Positions 3,032 through 62,865 of a stretch of 64,000 nt of DNA are shown here, in pieces. Below the pieces are notes generated by a model. That model was given only the letters and a program-made list of their open reading frames with translations, was not told the DNA's origin and did not search any database. The first letter of the stretch is position 1, and every line of letters begins with the position of its first letter. The position numbers and the translations under genes were made by a program. This DNA comes from a virus, in the IMG/VR virus record IMGVR_UViG_3300003322_000266, positions 10,294-74,293 of that record. One strand, written 5' to 3'.

Positions 3032-3778
3032 TCACTTCTCCACTTTCTTGACTTTGGGCTTGCCCGCGTTGAGGAAGTACTGCATGTCGAAGGCCGGCAC
3101 TCCCGTCTGCATCGAGATCACCTCCGGGTCACCACCTTCCTTCAGCAGCTGAACAGCACGACGCAAGTCTTGACCATCCTTGATGATGGGCGCCAGCTTC
3201 GCTTCGAGCTTCATGTTCCTGGCAAGGAACCTGAGGAGCGTACGCTCCGAACAGCGCGAGTTGAAGTAGTCGACGATCATCGCCTGCACCTCCTTGCGGA
3301 ACGTGTAGGGCGCCACGTGCTGCACCGCGGTCAGGATCTTGTTCAACAGTGACGGCTTCGCCACGTGGTTGATGTAGTCGACCGGACTCATGTGCGAGAC
3401 TTCGATCTTGATCTCTGCCTCGGACAGGAGTGCAGTCATCAGCGCCGTGACAAGGTCGGGACCAGACAGAGCCGGAATGTTCGTGGTCGACAGCATTCCA
3501 TGCGAGCCGACAATGAAATTGATGGCCTTCGGTCGCAAACCCTTTAGCGTGTAGCAGATGTGAACGTCTCTGGGCTGTGGTTGCTTCATGTTGATTCGGC
3601 GCGCGGGCTTGCCCTTAGTAGCCGAATCGATGGTGTGAGTCACCTTCAGCTGCCGCAGTGTCTCGCTCAGGTCAAAAGCGGAGAATACTGTGGAAGAGAA
3701 GACTGCGTACTTCTGGTCTCCGGTCTTACTTGATTTCACTTGGATGTCCTCGGCGAATGGACGCACCGGAAGCGTCAC
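3032..3778 (-). CDS. Hypothetical protein
   Basis: 248-aa ORF with genome-typical codon usage between real genes; start uncertain (overlaps the SbcC-like 3' end). Confidence 0.6.
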   Translation of the reverse strand: MTLPVRPFAEDIQVKSSKTGDQKYAVFSSTVFSAFDLSETLRQLKVTHTIDSATKGKPARRINMKQPQPRDVHICYTLKGLRPKAINFIVGSHGMLSTTNIPALSGPDLVTALMTALLSEAEIKIEVSHMSPVDYINHVAKPSLLNKILTAVQHVAPYTFRKEVQAMIVDYFNSRCSERTLLRFLARNMKLEAKLAPIIKDGQDLRRAVQLLKEGGDPEVISMQTGVPAFDMQYFLNAGKPKVKKVEK

Positions 3779-5894
3779 GGTAGATGGTGTACTCCTTGGC
3801 GCCCTGATAGCGCTCGTACTCCTTCGGTGTCACGATCAGGATGCTCGGGATCACAGTCAGCAGATGCGGTAGCAGCGTGTGGAACCTGTCGATCATGCCT
3901 TCGTGGAAAGAGGCGCAAGGCTCGTCCATGACCAGAAGCGACAGTCGCTTGTCGCTCGGCACGTACATGAGCAGCGAGAAGATGAGGATCATGGTGAACA
4001 GCGTCGACTCCGCACCCGAGAGCTTGCGCACGTCAGTCGGAGGCTTGCCACGACGATGAACCAGGAGCCGAATCTTCGTGTCCCACTTGAACTCGAAGCG
4101 GTAGTCGACAAAGACCAGGGTCCCCATCTTGTTGATGGTGGCCATCATCTGCTCGCTGATGGCCTCGATCGCCATGCGCTTCACCGCCTTGTCATCGTAG
4201 GCGCTGATCGCGAACTGCAGGGCTTCTTCCTCGCTCAGCTGCTCCTTGAGATCAGCCAGACGGTTGCGCATGTCAGTCGCCCGAGCCTTGACCGTGTTGT
4301 GGACTTCGAGCTTGGTCTTGGTCGACGACAGACGATCTTGCACCTCTTCGAGCTTCGACGAGTCGAAGACCGATTTGCGTTGCTGGTCAGTCAGAGCTTC
4401 GAGGTCCTTGACCGATCCCAAGTGTTGCGCCACGAACTCGAGTACCTTAAGCTCATGACTCAGAGTCTCGACGTCACCTGCCTCTTCGGGCTTCTCCACC
4501 TTCTCAGGCTTGGGACCCAGACGCTGGAGCTTCATGTACAGGGCATGATCATCGCGATGCTTGTTCTGAAGTCGCTCAGCCTTGGCTCTGGCCTCGGCCT
4601 TCGGACCGTACTCCTCCATCTCGCGGTCATACTTGGCCTTGAGTTCAGAGTATCGATCCCATTGCGTCCAGCACATCTCGAGTTCTTCGAGCTCTGTCCT
4701 GAGCTTGTCGATCTTGTCCGGGTCGTGCTTGGCAACGGGCTGACCGCACTCTCCACAGATGCCGCCCTTGAACTTCTTCGAGTGGGCAACCATCTGGTCG
4801 AGCTTGACCTCCATCTTCGCCATCTCGGCGCGGCTGATCTCCGGCTTCTGGGCAGACTGCTTCATCTGCTTCAGAGCCGGACCGTACAGCAGGTCTGGAC
4901 TGACCAGCTTCTCGTAGAGCTTGAGCTCTGCAGTCGCACGAGTGAAAGTCTTGGATGCGGCCTCCAGTTCATCCATGTCTCGCTCGCTGTCGAGGTCAGC
5001 CGCAGCTTCTTCCCAGGTCTTGAGCGCACGCTTGTACGCTCGGTACTCCTCAGCCTGTCGACCGGCCTTGCGCGCTGCCTTGAGTCTGACCTTCGTGTCC
5101 TCGATCTTGTCTTCGAGAGATGACCAGTCATCACAAAGCTTGGCTGCAGCCTTGATCTGGTCGCTCGCATAGGACTCGAACTGGAGCAGGGACTTGATGC
5201 GTTGTGACTCGTCGGACTGGGCCCTGAGCTTCTTAAGCCTGACTTCGAGTTGCTCGAGCTTGGACTCGAGCTCCAGACGCTCGCCCTTCTTCAGCATGTC
5301 GGACTTGACAGCGTTGAAGGTGGTCTCGAGTTCGGTGAACTGAGCCTTGATCTTGCGGAGTTCGGCCGCACGTGCGGCCAACACCTTCTTCTCGGCATCG
5401 AGTCGATCGAGCTGAAAGAAGGAGGTGAAGAACTTCTTCCTCTCCGTCGAGTCACCCATGACTAGTGGGTGCGGCATCTTCGAGTCCATGAACCCGTAGG
5501 TCCTGTACTCGTCTTCGGTGATCGACCAGTAGCGTGGAATCAGACTCTTCGTCTTCGACGGAGTCGCGCCCTTCTTCTCCGTGCCGTCGACCGCGATCTT
5601 GACTCGCTCGGAACGGCCGTTGTACGTGGTCTGGATCTTGACTCGGCGCTTGCCCTTCATGAACTGAATCATGCGGACGCCGGACTTGGTCTTGTCTTCC
5701 TTCTCGCCGATGATCGGCGTGTCGTAGAAGATGTCTGCAGTTGCCGAGGCGAAAACGGACTTGCCCGCGGCGTTACCGATTCCTCCCATGAGCATGTTCT
5801 TGCCATAGAGGTAGGTAACGCCGCGGGCAATCTGGAGCTTGGTGGGCTTGAAGTCGGCGATGCCGCTCAGCCCTAGTTGTTCAACGATCAGCAT
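3726..5894 (-). CDS. SbcC/Rad50/T4 gp46-like recombination ATPase
   Basis: Walker A GIGNAAGKS, long coiled coil with Zn-hook CGECGQ, ABC signature LSGAE, Walker B LLVMDEP. Confidence 0.92.
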   Translation of the reverse strand: MLIVEQLGLSGIADFKPTKLQIARGVTYLYGKNMLMGGIGNAAGKSVFASATADIFYDTPIIGEKEDKTKSGVRMIQFMKGKRRVKIQTTYNGRSERVKIAVDGTEKKGATPSKTKSLIPRYWSITEDEYRTYGFMDSKMPHPLVMGDSTERKKFFTSFFQLDRLDAEKKVLAARAAELRKIKAQFTELETTFNAVKSDMLKKGERLELESKLEQLEVRLKKLRAQSDESQRIKSLLQFESYASDQIKAAAKLCDDWSSLEDKIEDTKVRLKAARKAGRQAEEYRAYKRALKTWEEAAADLDSERDMDELEAASKTFTRATAELKLYEKLVSPDLLYGPALKQMKQSAQKPEISRAEMAKMEVKLDQMVAHSKKFKGGICGECGQPVAKHDPDKIDKLRTELEELEMCWTQWDRYSELKAKYDREMEEYGPKAEARAKAERLQNKHRDDHALYMKLQRLGPKPEKVEKPEEAGDVETLSHELKVLEFVAQHLGSVKDLEALTDQQRKSVFDSSKLEEVQDRLSSTKTKLEVHNTVKARATDMRNRLADLKEQLSEEEALQFAISAYDDKAVKRMAIEAISEQMMATINKMGTLVFVDYRFEFKWDTKIRLLVHRRGKPPTDVRKLSGAESTLFTMILIFSLLMYVPSDKRLSLLVMDEPCASFHEGMIDRFHTLLPHLLTVIPSILIVTPKEYERYQGAKEYTIYRDASGASIRRGHPSEIK

Positions 5895-5895
5895 G

Positions 5896-6606
5896 TCACT
5901 TGCCTAGAAGCAGGTCTTCGATTTGTTGGTACAGTTGTTCCAACGTGCCCCTGTTGTCGATGACCTTGTCGTAGTCGTTCCAGAGCACGTGTTGCCACTC
6001 GGACTCGTGCACTCGATCCTCGTTTCTGAGTCTCGACATGATCTTGTGTCCGTAGTCGACGACAGCGTTCCGAGTAGCGCTGTTCTGGAGGTCGACCTCT
6101 GGAATCGTCAGACCATTGAGCGTGAACTGCTCCATGCCCTTGTAGAAGGGCTTGAGCCAGTGTGGCTGCCGACGATGGACACCGACGATCTGGCCCTTCG
6201 CTTCACGCACGAACGCGAACTCGTTGAGGAAGCGTGCGTCGGTGATGACGACCGGGCCCTGATACTTCATGATCTCGTTGGCGAGACTCAGAATCCAGAA
6301 CTCGGGGTGGAAGTGATTGCGCACGACCTCGGTTGCGAAGTTCTGAAGCACCCATCGAGGCGTGATCTGGACACCGAGATCGAGCTTGTCGGTCCACCAC
6401 TCGTCGGGCTCGTCACGCCACTTTCTCGACTCTTCGGTCACGCCGTCGAGGAGCAGCCGATCCCAGTGGAACATGGCAGCCACTGCGTCCTTAAGGCTTG
6501 ATCCGAAGCTGACGCGCTTGAAGCCCTCGTGCTTGACCAGGTAGTCACCGACCGTGTCCTTGCCCGATCCGATGATACCCGCAACGGCGATGATTCTGCT
6601 GCTCAT
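5896..6606 (-). CDS. Deoxynucleoside monophosphate kinase (T4 gp1-like)
   Basis: IIAVAGIIGSGKDTVGDYL P-loop, SFGSSLKDAVAAMF, TPRWVLQ..TE..R, VVITDARFLNE, HESE. Confidence 0.92.
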   Translation of the reverse strand: MSSRIIAVAGIIGSGKDTVGDYLVKHEGFKRVSFGSSLKDAVAAMFHWDRLLLDGVTEESRKWRDEPDEWWTDKLDLGVQITPRWVLQNFATEVVRNHFHPEFWILSLANEIMKYQGPVVITDARFLNEFAFVREAKGQIVGVHRRQPHWLKPFYKGMEQFTLNGLTIPEVDLQNSATRNAVVDYGHKIMSRLRNEDRVHESEWQHVLWNDYDKVIDNRGTLEQLYQQIEDLLLGK

Positions 6607-7309: not shown

Positions 7310-7759
7310 TCAGAGATATCGTTGCCTATATTTAAAGTATAGGTTCGGCACTTCCTTGATGGCGACGAGGTTGAACTGGAACCAGAGTTGACTGTCGCGC
7401 ATGTGAATGAACCAACCGCGGTTCCAATGCCACATGTGGAGAATCTCTCCTGGTTTGAGGCAGAAGTTAGACTTGTACCTGGCCTCTGCCGTATCAAGGC
7501 GCTTCCACAGCGAGTCCTCATCGTCGTCAGGTCCGACCGAGCACGCTAGCACGAACTGACCAGCACACTCGAGGTACTTGCTTCCAGGTGGGACCGAGAA
7601 GCGGACGAGATGCTGTACGTGCTCATCGATGCCCCAATACTCGGAACCCGGGTTGAGAACCAGCTTTGCCCTCTGGTCATGTGCAAGAGGCCTCGAATCG
7701 ATGAACGACCCAAGGCCTCTCTGGACGACCATTGCTGCTGCGTCGTCCCACTCGATCAT
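7310..7759 (-). CDS. Hypothetical protein
   Basis: Likely start ATG 7759 overlapping the upstream TGA (ATGA). Confidence 0.6.
   Translation of the reverse strand: MIEWDDAAAMVVQRGLGSFIDSRPLAHDQRAKLVLNPGSEYWGIDEHVQHLVRFSVPPGSKYLECAGQFVLACSVGPDDDEDSLWKRLDTAEARYKSNFCLKPGEILHMWHWNRGWFIHMRDSQLWFQFNLVAIKEVPNLYFKYRQRYL
7329..7338 (-). promoter_or_regulatory. Putative phage promoter variant ACTTTAAATA
   Basis: 9/10 match to ACTGTAAATA; forces AT-rich codons TTT AAA TAT at the end of the host ORF. Confidence 0.45.
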
Positions 7760-8361
7760 AGGATCATGACCGACGGTGGCTTCAGTTGTGCCGTGCCGGA
7801 ACGTCCGTGGTTGTAACTCGTCTCCCACTCACGACCGCAGGTGACACACGAGCGACGTTCGCGCCAGATTTCCGGATCGTCGAATCGCCACTCGCCGTCA
7901 GGCGTCTGCATCGGAGAGGCACTGCGGCTGGTCTCGGTCGCGACCTTGACCTTGCACCTGCCGAACTCGGCGCATCGTGACCTCGGCCTCTGCGTCACTG
8001 CCGGATTCGGCGGCCCTTGCTCAACCTTGGTCGCTGCCATGAGCGAGTCCAGATTCTTCAAGATCTGCTCGTAGGTGTGAGCCGTCTGAGGTGCCGTTCC
8101 GGTCCAGAACTGGATGGTGTCTTCGAGCAACGTCCTGTACTCGGTGAGGACGGCGCCCAGGTGGGCGCTCATCTCCAACATCGGCTGATCCGTCGTCTCG
8201 TAGTCGTGCAGCTCGTAGTTGACGTCGTTGAGCATGCGCTTGTAGGCTGCCAGGGCCTCGACCGGGAACGGCTCACGACCGTGCCAGACTTCGATCTTGG
8301 TGCTGATCAGAGCTCGTGCGTTGTGAAGGTGTTGCACCACGGGTGCGCTGAGCTTGGTCAC
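7756..8361 (-). CDS. Hypothetical protein with C-terminal NrdR-like Zn ribbon
   Basis: GTG 8361 overlaps the upstream TGA; C-terminus CxxxxxC...WRERRSCVTCGREWET resembles the NrdR N-terminal Zn ribbon (RRRRECxxCGxRFTT). Confidence 0.55.
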   Translation of the reverse strand: MTKLSAPVVQHLHNARALISTKIEVWHGREPFPVEALAAYKRMLNDVNYELHDYETTDQPMLEMSAHLGAVLTEYRTLLEDTIQFWTGTAPQTAHTYEQILKNLDSLMAATKVEQGPPNPAVTQRPRSRCAEFGRCKVKVATETSRSASPMQTPDGEWRFDDPEIWRERRSCVTCGREWETSYNHGRSGTAQLKPPSVMIL

Positions 8362-8876
8362 TTGGACCTCCGTTCTTGAAGTTTGCGTCGGAAGGCTTCG
8401 ACAGCCAGGCCTTGCCGGAGAACACCTGCCGTGTTGTAGGCCTTGACGCACTGGCGAATGTCTTCGTCGCTGAGGTCGCCCGTCGAGGCGATGACCTTCT
8501 CGTCGCCGCATACCTCGTACTGACGAACCCTGAGGCACAGACCTTCCGGACTTGCGACGATGCCACCCAGCTTGTCCGGCAGCACGTTGTGCTGGAACAT
8601 GTTCACCAGTTCTTGTAGCTCTTCTGATGTCGGAGTCCAGGTGTCGGAGCCGGCTTGGAGGTGAAGGATGCGCTGCGTCTTCGTATCCTTGGTCGAGGTC
8701 TCGGGTGGAGGGCTGGTGCCTTCTTCCTTCGCCTTCTTGATCAAGGTCCAGCCGACGTCACGCTTGAACTCGATGATGCCACGGAGCCGCAGAGACTTGA
8801 GTCGCGCCTTGATCGCGTTCCACACCTGCGGATTCTTGTCCGTGTTCAGGGTTCGAGACATCGCAGCCCAGACCAA
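8358..8876 (-). CDS. Hypothetical protein carrying a portal-like segment
   Basis: Contains QRILHLQAGSDTWTPTSEELQELVNMF, matching portal QRAMSHIAAGDDVWTPTSEELQVLVQQF; the 5' end may be frameshifted. Confidence 0.7.
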   Translation of the reverse strand: MVWAAMSRTLNTDKNPQVWNAIKARLKSLRLRGIIEFKRDVGWTLIKKAKEEGTSPPPETSTKDTKTQRILHLQAGSDTWTPTSEELQELVNMFQHNVLPDKLGGIVASPEGLCLRVRQYEVCGDEKVIASTGDLSDEDIRQCVKAYNTAGVLRQGLAVEAFRRKLQERRSK

Positions 8877-8962
8877 GCGGTCGAGATGCAGCCGACTCGG
8901 GTGCCGGTCTTGATCGCGTTGAGAATCACGTTGTCGATGTATGTGTACTTCTTGGTGGTCAT
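8846..8962 (-). pseudogene. 38-aa ORF, possibly the frameshifted N-terminus of 8358..8876
   Basis: ATG 8962 overlaps the upstream TGA; MTTKKYTYIDNVILNAIKTG; the -1 frame continues openly into 8358..8876. Confidence 0.4.
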
Positions 8963-9579
8963 GCCAGAATCCTCAGTGCTGCGACACGGGCGCTGAAGGT
9001 CCACTGCCCGTTGTCATTGATGTCGGCCTTCCAGCCGCCGTGCCAGAGCATCAGCCGCTTGTCGACCCTGCTGAAGGTGCGCCTGAGCCACGATGGTTCA
9101 GAGCCCAGACGCTCGAGTACGAACTTCTCCTGCCGCTCCATCTCCGCCAGGGTCTCCTGAAAAGAGCGCCAGCCTGGGCTGTTGCAGAAGCTGAGCACGA
9201 TCTCGGGCACTTGCAGGAAAGCCCATTGCTTGAACTCGACCAGATGCGGATTGATTTTCTCATCCAGATAGCGAATGAGCTTGACATCATGCGCGTCGAG
9301 AGTCGGATGACACTCGGTTGCCAGATAGTCGTAGCTCCGCTTTCCGAAGTAGCGATGAGAGGACGCGATCGAGTCAAGAAAGCACTTGATGCCGGCCCTG
9401 AGTTTCGCGTTGTCCATCTCTGAGGTGCCGACCAGCGCCATCATCTCGGTCGCGAGCGCGGGAACATCCCAGTTCCTGTTGTTCTGGTAGCCGGCGAGAA
9501 AGCTGTTGGCGCTCCTCATGAAGCGGGCCGGAATGCCACAGCTGGCATCGAAGCCTTCCGGGTATTGATCTGAGTTCAC
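8959..9579 (-). CDS. Hypothetical protein
   Basis: 206 aa, GTGA/ATGA coupling on both sides. Confidence 0.65.
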   Translation of the reverse strand: MNSDQYPEGFDASCGIPARFMRSANSFLAGYQNNRNWDVPALATEMMALVGTSEMDNAKLRAGIKCFLDSIASSHRYFGKRSYDYLATECHPTLDAHDVKLIRYLDEKINPHLVEFKQWAFLQVPEIVLSFCNSPGWRSFQETLAEMERQEKFVLERLGSEPSWLRRTFSRVDKRLMLWHGGWKADINDNGQWTFSARVAALRILA

Positions 9580-54233: not shown

Positions 54234-55760
54234 TCAAGTTGCCAGTTTCAAAATGCCGGCCTTGGCCTGCACGAATGTCGTATCAGCTCCAGCTGTCTGG
54301 GTCCCGATCGGTGTCTCGCGTGACGCTACCTGCTGACCCTTGCTCAGACCCGGAAGGTAGAGACCAGGATCAACTGGGGCACTTGCGCTCATCGGCTGGA
54401 CTTCGAAGTGCAAGTGTGCGCCTGTCGAGATGCCAGTCGATCCCATGGTGCCGATGCGCTGCCCAGCGACAACGGAGTCGCCCTTGTTGACAGCGAAGGA
54501 TGCCATGTGACCGTATCGGGTTCGGAATCCTTGATGCTGAAGTTGGATGAAATTGCCGTAGGAGTTGGAGACTCGGCGGTCTTCAACCACACCATCAGCC
54601 GCGGCCAGGATCGGAGTCCCGGTCGTGCCTGCGATGTCAACCCCTTGGTGTTCGGTTGATGCACCCTCGGTCGGCTTCTCACGATGACCGAACGGACTGG
54701 AGACTGTGCCCGATGCTGGATAGACGAGTCGAATCTCGGAGCTGACAGCAGCCTGCACTTGATCCTTGTAGCCGTTGGCCGCGAAGGCTAGAGCTTGTCG
54801 TGCTGCCTCTGCGATCTGCGCGTCAGTGTACGGGTTCGATCCATTCTCTTGCCAGATGATGGCCTGCATCATGAGCTCGAGCGTCTTCAAGTCGGCCAAG
54901 TCCAGCTTCTGGTCTGCCCCAACACCCATGCGCCGAGACACAGCGACCACGTACTGGTCAGTGTCATTCTCGTTTCGTGGAGCCCAGGTCTCGACCATGG
55001 ACCTGACCGTGTCTTTGCCACGACTGTAGTTCAGCTCGATCTGTCGGCCCATGTTGTACAGGCCTTGACCTTGCGTCGCAAACTGCGCGAAGTGTCCGCT
55101 CTCTGGCAATGCGCCTGGCTGGTGTGCGTAGACGAGATTGCCCGGGTTGTTGTTGCGGATACCTTGAGCTGCACCGGCTGGAAGCTTAACCTCGGGCTGC
55201 TCTGAGGTTGGGGCAAGGCTGACCTCGAACTTCTGTTCCTTGGCTTCACCCTCGTACTTACCAGCCTTCCAGTCGGACCAACGCTTGTAGAGGTAGGCGC
55301 CGCCAGCGACGACGCCAGCCACAGCCAGGCCCTCGGGCGTGAAGACTAGCGGTAGGACAGCGCTGATCGCAGCCACGGAGATGCTGAACATCGGGATCAC
55401 CACAGTCTCGATGGCGAAGGGAATGAAGGTGAAGAGCCCTTCGCACAGCGTCTCGATCGCAGTCGAGACACCGGCCTTTGCGGCCTGCATCAGGCTCTCC
55501 ATCGCTTCGCTCTCTTGCGCTTCGAGCGCGATCTTGGGCACTGTCTTGTCGCGGTTGGCGACCATGACTGCGTGCTTGATCTTCTTGAAGCTCGAGTTCA
55601 GATAGCGCTTCTGACTGATCGCCTTTCCATTCCTCATTACGTCACCGATCGACACGACCAGACCAGCGACGGCAGTCGGGGCCACAAGGGCCATTGCGGC
55701 CTCTGTACCCAGCATGGCTTGCCGTCGCTGCTTGATCTGGATCATGTCAATGATGTTCAT
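54234..55760 (-). CDS. Tail-associated peptidoglycan hydrolase: lysozyme-like domain + M23 peptidase
   Basis: GIRNNNPGNL...WAPRNENDT..Y...AII..ENG; M23 motifs HQGVD, YGH, TGAHLHFEV. Confidence 0.85.
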   Translation of the reverse strand: MNIIDMIQIKQRRQAMLGTEAAMALVAPTAVAGLVVSIGDVMRNGKAISQKRYLNSSFKKIKHAVMVANRDKTVPKIALEAQESEAMESLMQAAKAGVSTAIETLCEGLFTFIPFAIETVVIPMFSISVAAISAVLPLVFTPEGLAVAGVVAGGAYLYKRWSDWKAGKYEGEAKEQKFEVSLAPTSEQPEVKLPAGAAQGIRNNNPGNLVYAHQPGALPESGHFAQFATQGQGLYNMGRQIELNYSRGKDTVRSMVETWAPRNENDTDQYVVAVSRRMGVGADQKLDLADLKTLELMMQAIIWQENGSNPYTDAQIAEAARQALAFAANGYKDQVQAAVSSEIRLVYPASGTVSSPFGHREKPTEGASTEHQGVDIAGTTGTPILAAADGVVEDRRVSNSYGNFIQLQHQGFRTRYGHMASFAVNKGDSVVAGQRIGTMGSTGISTGAHLHFEVQPMSASAPVDPGLYLPGLSKGQQVASRETPIGTQTAGADTTFVQAKAGILKLAT

Positions 55761-60656: not shown

Positions 60657-61013
60657 TCAGTGCTCTCCGATCTGGGACTTGCGCAGACGCAGGTCGGAGA
60701 TGTTCTCCTTCGTGCGGTTGATCTGCTTCTCGGTCGTGTTGCGTTGAACCGGCGACATCGCGCGCCGATTCTCACGGCTCGGCATCGAGTGCTTGAGGTT
60801 CTCGACCTGCTTCTTCTTGTTCTCGATCTGGTTGTCGAGGTTCTGCTTCTGTTGCTTCTGGCTCGGTGTCTCGTCGGCCAGCAAGCGACTCTTAGCGTTG
60901 AGCTTCATGTGTGACTCCATGACTGGAGCAAGACCCTCCGTAGAGGGTCCCGCAGTTGCCATAAAATTGATGCCCAGACTCTTAGGCGCCGAAGCCCGGA
61001 AGGCGGTCGGCAC
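60657..61013 (-). CDS. Hypothetical coiled-coil protein
   Basis: Gln/Lys/Arg-rich; true start probably downstream of 61013. Confidence 0.5.
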   Translation of the reverse strand: MPTAFRASAPKSLGINFMATAGPSTEGLAPVMESHMKLNAKSRLLADETPSQKQQKQNLDNQIENKKKQVENLKHSMPSRENRRAMSPVQRNTTEKQINRTKENISDLRLRKSQIGEH

Positions 61014-62865
61014 CGAGCTTCTTCATGTTGGCTTGCTTGAGCCGCGCTCGGTAGTTCGGGTCGGCCTCGACTTGAGCTGCGATCTTGGCGATGCGCCAGT
61101 TCATGTCGCGAGCCTTCATGCGAGGCTGTGCAGCGTCGGGTACGTGCCGCTTCTTGCCGGTCACGGACTCGGTGAACATCTCTGGATTCTTGAACTCACG
61201 TGCGAGGATGCCCTTGGCGAAACCACCGAGGCCATGCTTGACAGAGCCCGTGGTCAGCTGGTTCGATTCGGCCTTCTGACCTTGCGTCGGAGCCAGGTTG
61301 TCATCGCCAGAGCCTGACCCGGAACCACCATCGTCACCGAACTCGGCATCATCGGGGTTCTGGTTCGCCACGTTCTGTGGCAGCTCCATGTACTTCGAGA
61401 TCTGCTTCTTGATCTCTTCGTTCTCGCGAGCATCGCGGATCAGAGTGTCCTTGTCGACACCAGCAGCCGCAAGCCACATCTTCAGTGGCACAGGCACGCC
61501 GTGACCTTCCAGCTTCTCCAGCATGTCCATCATGTTGTCTTCGCCCTTGGCCGTCAGGTCCTTCGTCCAGTGCAGCACTGGAATCCGGAGGTTCTCACGG
61601 TTTGCGGCGTTGAACATGAAGTCGAGCAGTCGATCGGATTGACCGGCCTTCGACGGGTCCTTGAACAGACGGTTGGCGATGGCGATGAGAGGGAACAGCT
61701 TCTTGTAGAAGATGCCGTTCGTCAGGTGCGTCCGGTAGCCGTTCGTCGTCTCCAGGAACGTCGAGTAGGCCGACTCGGCCGCAGCATACGATGCGTCACC
61801 GCTCATCATCGCTTCGCTGACGCCCAGGGCACGCAGCTTGTACGGAGTCATGACGTCGGTCATGTCCGTCCACTTCCAGAAGTCGCCACCTGGGCGCAGG
61901 TCTTGAATCTGGATCGCGTTGCGCGTCGAGATCCAGCCGCCCATCGGGTCCTTCTCGGCATCCATGAACTGCTGGACTAGGACCTGCAGCTCTTCACTGG
62001 TCGGCGTCCACACGTCGTCGCCGGCTGCGATGTGCGACATCGCGCGCTGCCGGCGTTGGGCTTCGGTCAATGTGCCCCGGAACATGGTCTTCTCGATCAT
62101 GTACATGGGCAGGATGCGATGAAGGTATGACTGGTACGCACGGTCGGTCAGACCACGACGACCAAGCCAAAGAGTCGTGATCGGATCGAGAACGAACGAG
62201 CCTTCCTTCAGCAGCTTCGTGAACGCTTGTGGAATCGTCGCCAGATAGGCCCTCGCGTAGTCGGTCGCTGAGTCGAGGAACCGCATCGTCGGACCTGAGA
62301 CCGAGACTCGAACCGTCGGGTCGACGTTGTTGAACGGGCTTGGACTCACACCGCACTGCATGGCATCGTGCGTCAGGATGTCCATGAAGTTCTTCGCGGC
62401 CGCATCGAAGATCAGAGACCCGCAGTAGAAGCCGTCGGTCAGGTACGCGACCGAGAGTTGAGGCAGCAGCTCTTGGAGGTTGAGCCTGGACAGCGCTGCG
62501 TTGAAGACGTCGGTCTCTTTGTCTTCGAGACCACGGAGTTCCCAGTCCGAGAACGGGAACACCGACTGGATATCGACCGCCGACCCTGCCACGTTGTCGT
62601 GCATGTAGATGTCGCGGTAGAAGTAGGTCAGTGACGACGAGTCCGGAATCTCTGGAGTCGCCGGCAGCAACCCGCTCATGTAGTAGTTGAAGTTCGACCC
62701 GTGGTAGAACTGGGACGAAACGTTCGAGGTGCTGAACGTGCCACCACCGCCACTGAGCGCAGCGGTCACGATGTTGTCGCCACGGGCTTGTCGCTGCGGC
62801 AACATCGCGGTCGTCTTCACTTCACCCCGACGGGTGATAGCGGTGATACGGTCTTTGGCAAACAT
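60982..62865 (-). CDS. Portal protein (T4 gp20-like, jumbo-phage type)
   Basis: 627 aa; YRDIY..D..AGSAVDI...FPFSD; SYLHRILP...IEK; AAESAYSTF; low-complexity tail; location in the head/tail module. Confidence 0.65.
   Translation of the reverse strand: MFAKDRITAITRRGEVKTTAMLPQRQARGDNIVTAALSGGGGTFSTSNVSSQFYHGSNFNYYMSGLLPATPEIPDSSSLTYFYRDIYMHDNVAGSAVDIQSVFPFSDWELRGLEDKETDVFNAALSRLNLQELLPQLSVAYLTDGFYCGSLIFDAAAKNFMDILTHDAMQCGVSPSPFNNVDPTVRVSVSGPTMRFLDSATDYARAYLATIPQAFTKLLKEGSFVLDPITTLWLGRRGLTDRAYQSYLHRILPMYMIEKTMFRGTLTEAQRRQRAMSHIAAGDDVWTPTSEELQVLVQQFMDAEKDPMGGWISTRNAIQIQDLRPGGDFWKWTDMTDVMTPYKLRALGVSEAMMSGDASYAAAESAYSTFLETTNGYRTHLTNGIFYKKLFPLIAIANRLFKDPSKAGQSDRLLDFMFNAANRENLRIPVLHWTKDLTAKGEDNMMDMLEKLEGHGVPVPLKMWLAAAGVDKDTLIRDARENEEIKKQISKYMELPQNVANQNPDDAEFGDDGGSGSGSGDDNLAPTQGQKAESNQLTTGSVKHGLGGFAKGILAREFKNPEMFTESVTGKKRHVPDAAQPRMKARDMNWRIAKIAAQVEADPNYRARLKQANMKKLGADRLPGFGA

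What the first reader, a model, noticed from the sequence alone, without database searches (positions are those of the whole stretch)
8358..8876. Free-standing copy of a portal-protein segment inside a small non-structural ORF
Residues at about 8565-8676 (QRILHLQAGSDTWTPTSEELQELVNMFQHNVLPDKLGGIVAS) align almost gap-free with the portal gene at about 61935-62050 (QRAMSHIAAGDDVWTPTSEELQVLVQQFMDAEKDPMGGWIST). WTPTSEELQ is identical while the codons differ, which suggests selection on the protein and not a recent DNA copy. The copy sits 53 kb away among early-type small ORFs, fused to an HTH-like N-terminus. Inference: it may be a portal mimic or decoy. It could bind terminase or portal partners to time packaging, exclude competing phages, or titrate host defences that sense portal (Avs/CBASS-type sensing of portal is established for other phages).
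Basis: partly seen in the sequence, partly recalled or inferred. Interest (0 to 1): 0.8.

Follow-up and report, generated by a model that had tools for sequence, protein, structure and literature searches.

The report
Free-standing copy of portal clip
A small gene of this uncultured jumbo phage encodes an old, fast-evolving, stand-alone copy of the portal "clip", where the DNA-packaging motor and the neck dock. It is joined to a winged-helix domain and belongs to an unnamed family found in several jumbo phages. What it binds is untested, and this phage's copy carries a frameshift.

Summary
The 8358-8876(-) ORF shares about 54 residues with the phage's own portal (60982-62865(-)): BLASTP E 4e-9, and profile-profile 99.4% probability, E 2.8e-21. 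The large protein is a true portal (PHROG 2e-165; fold Z 16.8). The shared piece lies between its stem helices, so it is the clip.

The copy is old. Its codons differ, and it does not group with its own portal in a tree. It defines an unnamed family of about 25 small-protein clusters with one or two clip modules. Members include BcepSaruman gp209, BCSR5 QRE00113, a Motura ORF and HRDY3 XDJ15160. RSL1, PaBG, Erwinia Y3, PhiXhv-12, Amme-1 and two Vibrio phages carry the module only in their portals.

New here:
- The true gene starts at 8962 with a winged-helix domain and is broken by a 1-nt frameshift near 8880.
- In relatives the winged-helix and clip parts are either fused or encoded by adjacent genes.

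The function is untested. I favour a soluble clip mimic, because a T4 clip peptide binds terminase and blocks packaging. A defence decoy, portal capping and a plain oligomerisation role all remain open. This scan noted stand-alone clip copies in three other jumbo phages.

The parts
8358..8962 (-). Whole gene as inferred: winged helix, linker, clip-like module, C-terminal helical hairpin. It is 605 nt (3n+2), so it is broken by a 1-nt frameshift.
   Evidence: The ATG at 8962 lies in an ATGA overlap with the upstream gene's stop and has GAGGA 8 nt upstream. The intact 220-aa orthologue P0123 has the same 4-nt overlaps and the same neighbours.
8846..8962 (-). Frame A: the first 38 codons. Residues 1-24 match the first helix of the winged-helix domain, and the rest is out-of-frame read-through to a TGA.
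8877..8890 (-). Approximate site of the 1-nt frameshift (frame A to frame B). There is no slippery heptamer.
   Evidence: Homology to P0123, P0150 and L031 switches frame here. A Logan unitig of run X2 (depth 2.4) covers 8851-9064 without any difference.
8358..8876 (-). Frame B: the ORF as flagged (172 aa from TTG 8876; 167 aa from ATG 8861 as called on record).
8727..8873 (-). Remainder of the winged-helix domain (helices 2-3 and the wing).
   Evidence: The AF2 model of orthologue P0123 has helices 7-18, 30-39, 46-60 and strands 64-67, 71-74. All of the top 50 VIA-align rows over residues 1-79 align to winged-helix-type domains, best Z 7.2.
8508..8675 (-). Clip-like module (strand, helix, hairpin; motif hhHhxxGxDxWxPTxEELxxhhxxF..GGhhA).
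   Evidence: Predicted strand 118-126, helix 135-146 and strand 163-171 in P0123.
8361..8507 (-). C-terminal helical hairpin. It is the best conserved part within the subfamily: 76% identity to P0123, against 45% for the clip module.
60982..62865 (-). Portal protein gene (627 aa).
   Evidence: phrog_16240 'portal protein' E 2.2e-165. Foldseek top hits are T4 gp20, SPbeta YonE and G20c portals at E about 3e-7. VIA-align Z 16.8, 293 residues aligned, rmsd 5.0 to the G20c portal.
61885..62046 (-). Clip domain of the portal (residues 274-327), the segment shared with the small protein.
   Evidence: hhalign range. It lies after the long helix 247-280 and before helices 337-346 and 360-397. That matches the T4 definition of the clip: three strands and one helix joining the two stem helices (PMC4493910).
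8959..9579 (-). Upstream 206-aa gene of unknown function. Its stop overlaps the clip gene's ATG, and it is syntenic in relatives.
7756..8361 (-). Downstream 201-aa gene with CxxC..CxxC at its C-terminus. Its GTG start overlaps the clip gene's TGA, with GGAGG 6 nt upstream. It is syntenic in relatives.

Best explanation
Shown: the gene is an ancient paralogue of the clip domain of this phage's own portal. It has been freed from the rest of the portal and placed between an N-terminal winged-helix domain and a short C-terminal helical hairpin. It belongs to an unnamed accessory family of small jumbo-phage proteins that carry one or two clip modules. Inferred: the protein acts as a soluble mimic of the portal clip and occupies a partner that normally docks on the clip ring. 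I think the most likely partner is the large terminase, so the protein would delay, tune or block DNA packaging, either the phage's own or a co-infecting relative's. Two modules, in tandem or by dimerisation, would rebuild the inter-subunit three-stranded sheet that adjacent portal subunits form. The winged helix, fused or encoded next door, would tether the mimic to DNA or to a further partner. In this window the winged helix is cut by a frameshift. If anything is made here, it is probably the clip plus C-terminal part, restarted at ATG 8861 or TTG 8876.
For: Homology to the portal clip: BLASTP E 4e-9; the portal PHROG hits the small ORF at E 5e-4; hhalign 99.4%, E 2.8e-21 over portal 274-327. 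The large protein is a portal by profile and by fold, and the segment sits between the stem helices. The clip is the attachment site of terminase gp17 and of neck gp13 in T4, and its sheet is built from one strand of one subunit plus two of the next (PMC4493910). A 24-residue T4 clip peptide (288-311) binds gp17 and inhibits packaging (PMC4493910); by position this stretch corresponds roughly to the loop-plus-helix that the small proteins conserve best. The family is real. It has intact ORFs in BcepSaruman/Sauron, BCSR5, Motura and HRDY3, about 25 metagenomic clusters and IMG/VR relatives with conserved synteny. About 10 of roughly 27 small proteins scanned carry two modules in tandem. Some members are little more than the modules (107-143 aa), so the module itself is the working part. 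The gene lies in an operon-like run with 4-nt start/stop overlaps on both sides.
Against: No binding has been shown, and the terminase gene is not on this 81-kb fragment. In the small modules only G, W and P are invariant, and F and L are nearly so, which are likely core positions. Portal-invariant polar positions (D283, A303, E304, D306, P307, T314, R315) vary, so the docking surface may have diverged. The modules evolve several times faster than portal clips and do not track their own portal. RSL1, PaBG, Erwinia Y3, PhiXhv-12, Amme-1, GR11A and GR7B carry the module only in their portals, so the family is not a core packaging part. Three members begin with Tat/Sec-like signal peptides, which would put them out of reach of terminase. 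This window's copy is frameshifted, and a low-depth unitig shows the same sequence.
Confidence: 0.35

Rival explanations
1. Anti-defence decoy. The free clip, made from a non-structural operon, occupies host immune sensors that recognise the portal clip. Because it is not a 12-fold ring, it does not cluster or activate them.
For: The SpbK TIR sensor docks on the clip domains of the SPbeta portal YonE and needs the dodecamer to cluster its TIR domains (PMC12847820). Portals are sensed by Avs4 and Avs11 (bioRxiv 10.64898/2026.01.04.697583). The family shows the pattern usual for conflict genes: patchy distribution, fast evolution, varied fusions, and a position among small genes of unknown function next to DNA-metabolism genes and far from the structural module.
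Against: No sensor of this kind is known for the unknown host of this root-metagenome phage. No paper found here reports a phage-encoded structural-protein decoy. A decoy that binds a sensor could just as well trigger it. The fused or adjacent winged helix has no obvious role in a decoy. No expression timing is available.
Confidence: 0.2
2. A DNA-binding regulator that has reused the clip fold only as a dimerisation or oligomerisation module, with no link to packaging or to portal partners.
For: The winged helix is fused to, or encoded directly beside, the clip gene in five lineages (window, P0123, L027, L031/L032). The invariant positions of the small modules look like fold-core residues. A single strand-helix-hairpin unit probably needs a second copy to fold, and tandem copies are common. 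The C-terminal hairpin, not the clip, is the most conserved part of this subfamily.
Against: Most family members have no DNA-binding domain at all. The winged-helix match is only middling (Z 7.2), and such domains also mediate protein contacts; the hits include cullin WHB and Rpa2. The strand-loop-helix motif stays recognisably portal-like over large distances.
Confidence: 0.2
3. Portal-binding factor. The free clip pairs by strand addition with the exposed clip edge of unassembled portal subunits. It would either chaperone or mask them until ring assembly, or poison ring assembly of a competing phage.
For: [quoted passage not shown] A free module has the same strands.
Against: There is no covariation between the small modules and their own portal clips. 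The family is absent from many phages with the same portal.
Confidence: 0.12
4. In this particular phage the gene is dead or dying. The frameshift has inactivated it and the ORF flagged is a remnant.
For: 605 nt (3n+2). The first 24 residues are in another frame, there is no slippery site, and no Shine-Dalgarno sequence precedes ATG 8861 or TTG 8876, whereas ATG 8962 has one. An independent low-depth unitig shows the same sequence.
Against: Downstream of the shift the frame is open for 172 codons. It is 45-76% identical to the intact orthologue by region, with the C-terminus at 76%, so any inactivation is very recent. An error in a 2-3x covered metagenome assembly cannot be excluded. Restart at ATG 8861, 13 nt before the frame-A stop, could still give the clip part. 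In relatives the clip part is a separate gene anyway.
Confidence: 0.13

Closest known systems
Clip domain of tailed-phage portal proteins (T4 gp20 residues 279-358; SPbeta YonE 270-325) and the T4 gp20 288-311 peptide that binds gp17
   Same: Same element: a strand, a helix and a hairpin of about 55 residues. It is demonstrably homologous to the clip of this phage's own portal. The T4 peptide shows that an isolated clip piece can bind terminase and block packaging (PMC4493910).
   Different: Here the element is a natural separate gene product, often duplicated in tandem and fused to other domains, not part of a 12-fold ring. [quoted passage not shown]
BcepSaruman gp209 (YP_009904142.1, 154 aa), BCSR5 QRE00113.1 (152 aa), HRDY3 XDJ15160.1 (196 aa), and an unannotated Motura frame at 14.9-15.3 kb
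   Same: Same family: small proteins of non-structural regions carrying the same module. Two of them are labelled 'portal protein' in the records, evidently by automatic transfer.
   Different: Different partners to the module: Saruman and Motura have two modules, BCSR5 has another C-terminal domain, and HRDY3 has a 130-residue N-terminal domain. None has the winged helix plus hairpin of the window's subfamily. None has a published function that I could find.
PHROG phrog_11049 (unknown function, 182 positions)
   Same: It hits both the small ORF (E 0.013) and the portal (E 0.097) over the same module.
   Different: Only 43 of 182 profile positions are matched and the score is weak, so membership is not established.
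Free-standing clip copies noted by this scan in three other jumbo phages (e1-5378965, e1-5349293, e1-1960452)
   Same: The same idea, a small separate gene that copies the portal clip or its tip, was read there too as a possible mimic.
   Different: At least two of those notes name T4-type portals (Pfam PF07230) as the source. This one derives from the PaBG/RSL1-type portal family (phrog_16240), so it would be an independent origin. I could not compare the sequences; a look-up by sequence found nothing.

Membership tests
Portal clip domain (as a fold element) | Sequence homology to the clip segment of a bona fide portal | tested here: met
   BLASTP E 4e-9; hhalign 99.4%, E 2.8e-21, portal 274-327. 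The portal was verified by PHROG and by fold.
Portal clip domain (as a fold element) | Three beta-strands and one helix (PMC4493910; PMC12847820) | tested here: inconclusive
   The AF2 model of orthologue P0123 gives strand 118-126, helix 135-146, two single bridge residues and strand 163-171, with pLDDT about 57-87. In the portal monomer model the helix 290-305 is predicted, but the strands are low-confidence coil. The pattern is consistent, but only two clear strands are modelled.
Portal clip domain (as a fold element) | Inter-subunit three-stranded sheet in a 12-fold ring; docking of terminase and neck | not testable with these tools
   This needs oligomer structure or binding data. No terminase gene is on the contig.
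Portal protein (whole) | Wing, stem and crown domains around the clip | tested here: not met
   The small protein has only the module, flanked by a winged helix and a helical hairpin. It is not a portal, despite the 'portal protein' labels on its relatives.
Winged helix-turn-helix domain | Three helices followed by a beta-hairpin wing | tested here: met
   In orthologue P0123: helices 7-18, 30-39, 46-60 and strands 64-67, 71-74. All of the top 50 VIA-align rows over residues 1-79 align to winged-helix-type domains, Z 5.7-7.2, rmsd 2-3 A over about 60 residues. Foldseek gives the same kind of hits but none below E 0.1. In the window the first helix is in another frame.
Winged helix-turn-helix domain | DNA binding | not testable with these tools
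   The fold alone does not show it, and the hits include protein-binding winged helices.
PHROG phrog_11049 | Full-length match to the 182-position profile | tested here: inconclusive
   E 0.013, positions 94-136 only; E 4.8e-4 in the six-frame search.

The most novel reading that the evidence does not exclude
Jumbo phages of at least two unrelated portal lineages have independently turned the portal clip into a class of small soluble mimics. These would either control the terminase-portal docking step, as natural versions of the inhibitory T4 clip peptide, or blind host sensors that read the portal clip. The tandem two-module form would reproduce the groove between two adjacent portal subunits.
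Probability: 0.3. Interest if true: 0.8.

Novelty: new variant of a known kind. Interest (0 to 1): 0.6.

Why it matters
The clip is the one surface of the capsid that the packaging motor, the neck and at least one host immune sensor all have to touch. A natural, diffusible copy of it would be a new kind of phage regulator or counter-defence. It would also be a ready-made tool for probing or blocking terminase docking in jumbo phages, whose packaging is poorly known. The family is unnamed, it is mislabelled 'portal protein' in public records, and it has cultured members (BcepSaruman, BCSR5, Motura) in which it can be tested directly. The frameshift, together with the fusion or fission of the winged-helix partner, also corrects how this locus should be annotated.

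Tried and rejected
- Complex prediction of portal 235-400 with small protein 55-167, both as alignments: no verdict (score 0.00, own folds uncertain). It says nothing either way.
- Sequencing runs: no RNA holder is listed. Two DNA runs of one root-metagenome study hold parts of the stretch as low-depth contigs. Only the unitig over 8851-9064 was used, and it is weak and possibly not independent.
- Pfam on the small ORF, its relatives and the modules: nothing above chance.
- PDB sequence searches with the portal, the portal profile and the module profile: nothing, or only chance-level hits.
- ESM Atlas look-up of P0123: best score 0.79, no lead.
- Word-indexed protein search with the small ORF: only itself.
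- Megablast of the region against phages: no match.
- Terminase (PF03237): not found on the 81-kb record.
- Programmed frameshift: considered and set aside, because there is no slippery heptamer in the overlap.
- Covariation of each small module with its own portal clip: none. The tree of 54 columns is mostly unresolved.
- dN/dS between the two copies: not computed, because half of the conserved codons already differ synonymously over 24 codons, so it would be saturated and meaningless.
- Contexts of the signal-peptide members: contigs of 1-1.6 kb, uninformative.
- Two long hits of the HMMER search (P0126, P0128) are low-complexity repeats, not relatives.
- Promoter and terminator scan: nothing above shuffles.

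Full report
**What is there.** The window is part of an 81-kb fragment (CheckV estimate 34% complete) of an uncultured virus from IMG/VR. Parts of the stretch are held by two runs of one root-metagenome study. On the minus strand, 8358-8876 is an ORF of 172 codons from TTG. The public gene call is the 167-aa version from ATG 8861. On the same strand, 60982-62865 encodes 627 aa.

- BLASTP aligns small-ORF residues 60-109 with residues 265-314 of the large protein: 45% identity, E 4e-9 for that one comparison.
- The PHROG portal family phrog_16240 hits the large protein at E 2.2e-165 and also hits the small ORF over the same stretch at E 5e-4.
- A profile of 29 modules cut from small proteins aligns to a profile of 63 portals with 99.4% probability and E 2.8e-21.
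- Over 24 gap-free codons 47 of 72 bases agree. Half of the identical residues use other codons, including 5 of the 9 codons of WTPTSEELQ. This is old protein-level paralogy, not a recent DNA copy.
- Six-frame searches with the protein and with the module profile find the module twice on the record, nowhere else.

**The large protein is a portal and the shared piece is its clip.** It has no Pfam match and no sequence relative among solved structures. An AF2 model built on 63 homologues (pLDDT 66.6) gives solved portals as its best Foldseek rows, including T4 gp20, SPbeta YonE, G20c, lambda and T7, at E about 3e-7. VIA-align gives Z 16.8 over 293 residues. In the model a 34-residue helix (247-280) leads into the shared segment, which holds a helix at 290-305. 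Helices at 337-346 and a long helix at 360-397 follow. T4 defines the clip as three strands and one helix joining the two stem helices. [quoted passage not shown] SPbeta YonE is described in the same way (PMC12847820). The low confidence of the strands in a monomer model fits a sheet that only forms between subunits. The gene lies in a tail and baseplate module. The nearest named phages by portal are RSL1 (49%), BcepSauron/Saruman (51%), BCSR5 and Motura (45%), then the PaBG, Erwinia Y3 and Dickeya JA group (group described in PMC7412058).

**The small gene is longer than the flagged ORF, and it is frameshifted here.**
- The closest relative, P0123 (220 aa, found on 12 contigs), has 30 more N-terminal residues.
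- In the window those residues exist in another frame. An ATG at 8962 sits in an ATGA overlap with the stop of the upstream 206-aa gene and has GAGGA 8 nt before it. It opens a 38-codon frame whose first 24 residues align to P0123 and to the 83-aa protein P0150. Homology then continues in the flagged frame from VWAAMS onward.
- 8358-8962 is 605 nt, one base short of a multiple of three. No slippery heptamer is present. ATG 8861 and TTG 8876 lack a Shine-Dalgarno sequence.
- A Logan unitig of a second run of the same study (depth 2.4) covers 8851-9064 without any difference. The shift is therefore in reads, but the support is thin and may not be independent.
- The gene's TGA overlaps the GTG of the downstream 201-aa gene, with GGAGG 6 nt upstream.
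- The order 135 aa, 206 aa, this gene, 201 aa, 150 aa, and further on dNMP kinase and an SbcC-like protein is the same on P0123's contig.

**Architecture.** An AF2 model of P0123 (pLDDT 73) shows four parts:
- three helices and a hairpin (residues 1-75);
- a disordered linker;
- strand 118-126, helix 135-146 and strand 163-171, which form the module;
- two C-terminal helices.

The first part aligns only to winged-helix-type domains in a search of 48,161 chains that does not depend on Foldseek. All of the top 50 rows are of that kind, Z 5.7-7.2. Foldseek agrees in kind but not in significance. Between the window's protein and P0123, the C-terminal hairpin is 76% identical, the module 45% and the winged helix 47%.

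**The winged helix and the clip part are a unit that fuses and splits.** In the IMG/VR relatives L031 and L032, and on the Logan contig L027, an approximately 85-aa winged-helix gene is followed directly by a separate 116-118-aa gene (clip module plus the same C-terminal hairpin). Then comes the 201-aa gene. In P0123 and in the window the two are one reading frame.

**A family, not a one-off.**
- tblastn and six-frame searches find a second, small copy besides the portal in four named lineages. BcepSaruman and BcepSauron have gp209 (154 aa, two tandem modules, labelled 'portal protein'). BCSR5 has QRE00113.1 (152 aa). Motura has an unannotated frame with two modules. HRDY3 has XDJ15160.1 (196 aa, labelled 'portal protein').
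- An exhaustive HMMER search of 1.8 billion representatives gives 29 hits. About 24 are small proteins of 71-256 aa. Two are portal or portal fragment, one is the winged-helix gene, and two are low-complexity artefacts.
- About 10 of the roughly 27 small proteins scanned carry two modules, and several are little more than two modules.
- With the module profile, RSL1, PaBG, Erwinia Y3, PhiXhv-12, Amme-1 and GR7B show only the portal copy. A search with the single protein found only the portal copy in GR11A.
- In IMG/VR relative G001 the small copy and the portal lie about 59 kb apart, much as in the window.
- The module has no Pfam family and no PDB sequence relative.

**Evolution.** A tree of 63 modules is poorly resolved. 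The RSL1/Saruman-type portal clips form a supported group with short branches. The small modules have branches several times longer. The window's module groups with P0123 and P0138, not with its own portal. Pairwise scores show no preference of a small module for its own portal. In the small modules only G, W and P are invariant, and F and L are nearly so. Several polar positions that are invariant in portals vary.

**How it most likely works.** Shown: the homology, the architecture, the family and the synteny. Inferred: the function. The clip is the docking surface for terminase and neck, and a 24-residue T4 clip peptide binds gp17 and inhibits packaging. The module alone makes up some members. 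Two modules could rebuild the inter-subunit sheet. I therefore favour a soluble clip mimic that occupies a clip partner, most likely the large terminase (0.35). The rivals are:
- a decoy for clip-reading host sensors, since SpbK docks on the clip ring and needs it for clustering and the distribution is patchy, fast-evolving and accessory-like (0.2);
- a winged-helix regulator that uses the fold only to oligomerise (0.2);
- a factor that caps portal subunits by strand pairing (0.12);
- for this window only, a freshly dead gene (0.13).

Against strict mimicry stand the diverged surface, the absence from many relatives, three members with signal peptides, and the lack of any binding data.

**Comparison and novelty.** I found no paper describing natural stand-alone clip proteins. 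Public records call them hypothetical or, wrongly, 'portal protein'. This scan has noted free-standing clip copies in three other jumbo phages, at least two of them with T4-type portals. I did not check those notes. One of them pointed me to the T4 peptide, which I verified in the paper. If they hold, the present case is an independent origin in another portal lineage. I rate it a new variant of a known kind: a known domain in a new, free and modular guise, with its function open.

Noticed in passing
protein P0145 (metagenomic); L002 58-732 (Vibrio phage GR11A): A relative's portal ORF runs straight from the clip hairpin into an intein-like start (..EVR then CLSGSTIISTDKG). GR11A has a HintN-domain CDS two genes before its portal. 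Inteins may sit right after the clip in this portal family.
   Followed up: no
proteins P0132, P0136, P0137; loci L028-L030: Three clip-module proteins begin with Tat/Sec-like signal peptides (RRSFF, RRSFL or RRTLL followed by a hydrophobic stretch). That would place a portal-derived module outside the cytoplasm. The contigs are only 1-1.6 kb.
   Followed up: partly
protein P0143 residues 107-163: One family member carries a weak WYL_2 (Sm-like SH3 barrel) match after the clip module (E 1.8e-4, below the Pfam cut-off).
   Followed up: no
window 7756-8361 (-): This is a conserved 201-aa gene translationally coupled to the clip gene. It has a C-terminal CxxC..CxxC (zinc-ribbon-like) motif and no Pfam or PHROG match. 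It follows the clip gene in the closest relatives examined (P0123's contig, L027, L031, L032).
   Followed up: partly
window 54234-55760 (-): A 508-aa protein in the tail module hits PHROG families annotated as endolysin, tail tape measure, tail-injection transglycosylase and metallo-endopeptidase. It is probably a virion-associated cell-wall hydrolase.
   Followed up: no
L008 3915-3989 and 4010-4468 (BCSR5): In BCSR5 a tRNA-Met gene lies directly in front of the clip gene and overlaps the upstream part of its open frame.
   Followed up: no
window 5896-6606 (-) and 3726-5894 (-): A dNMP kinase and an SbcC-like ATPase lie a few genes downstream on the same strand, which marks the region as non-structural.
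   Followed up: partly
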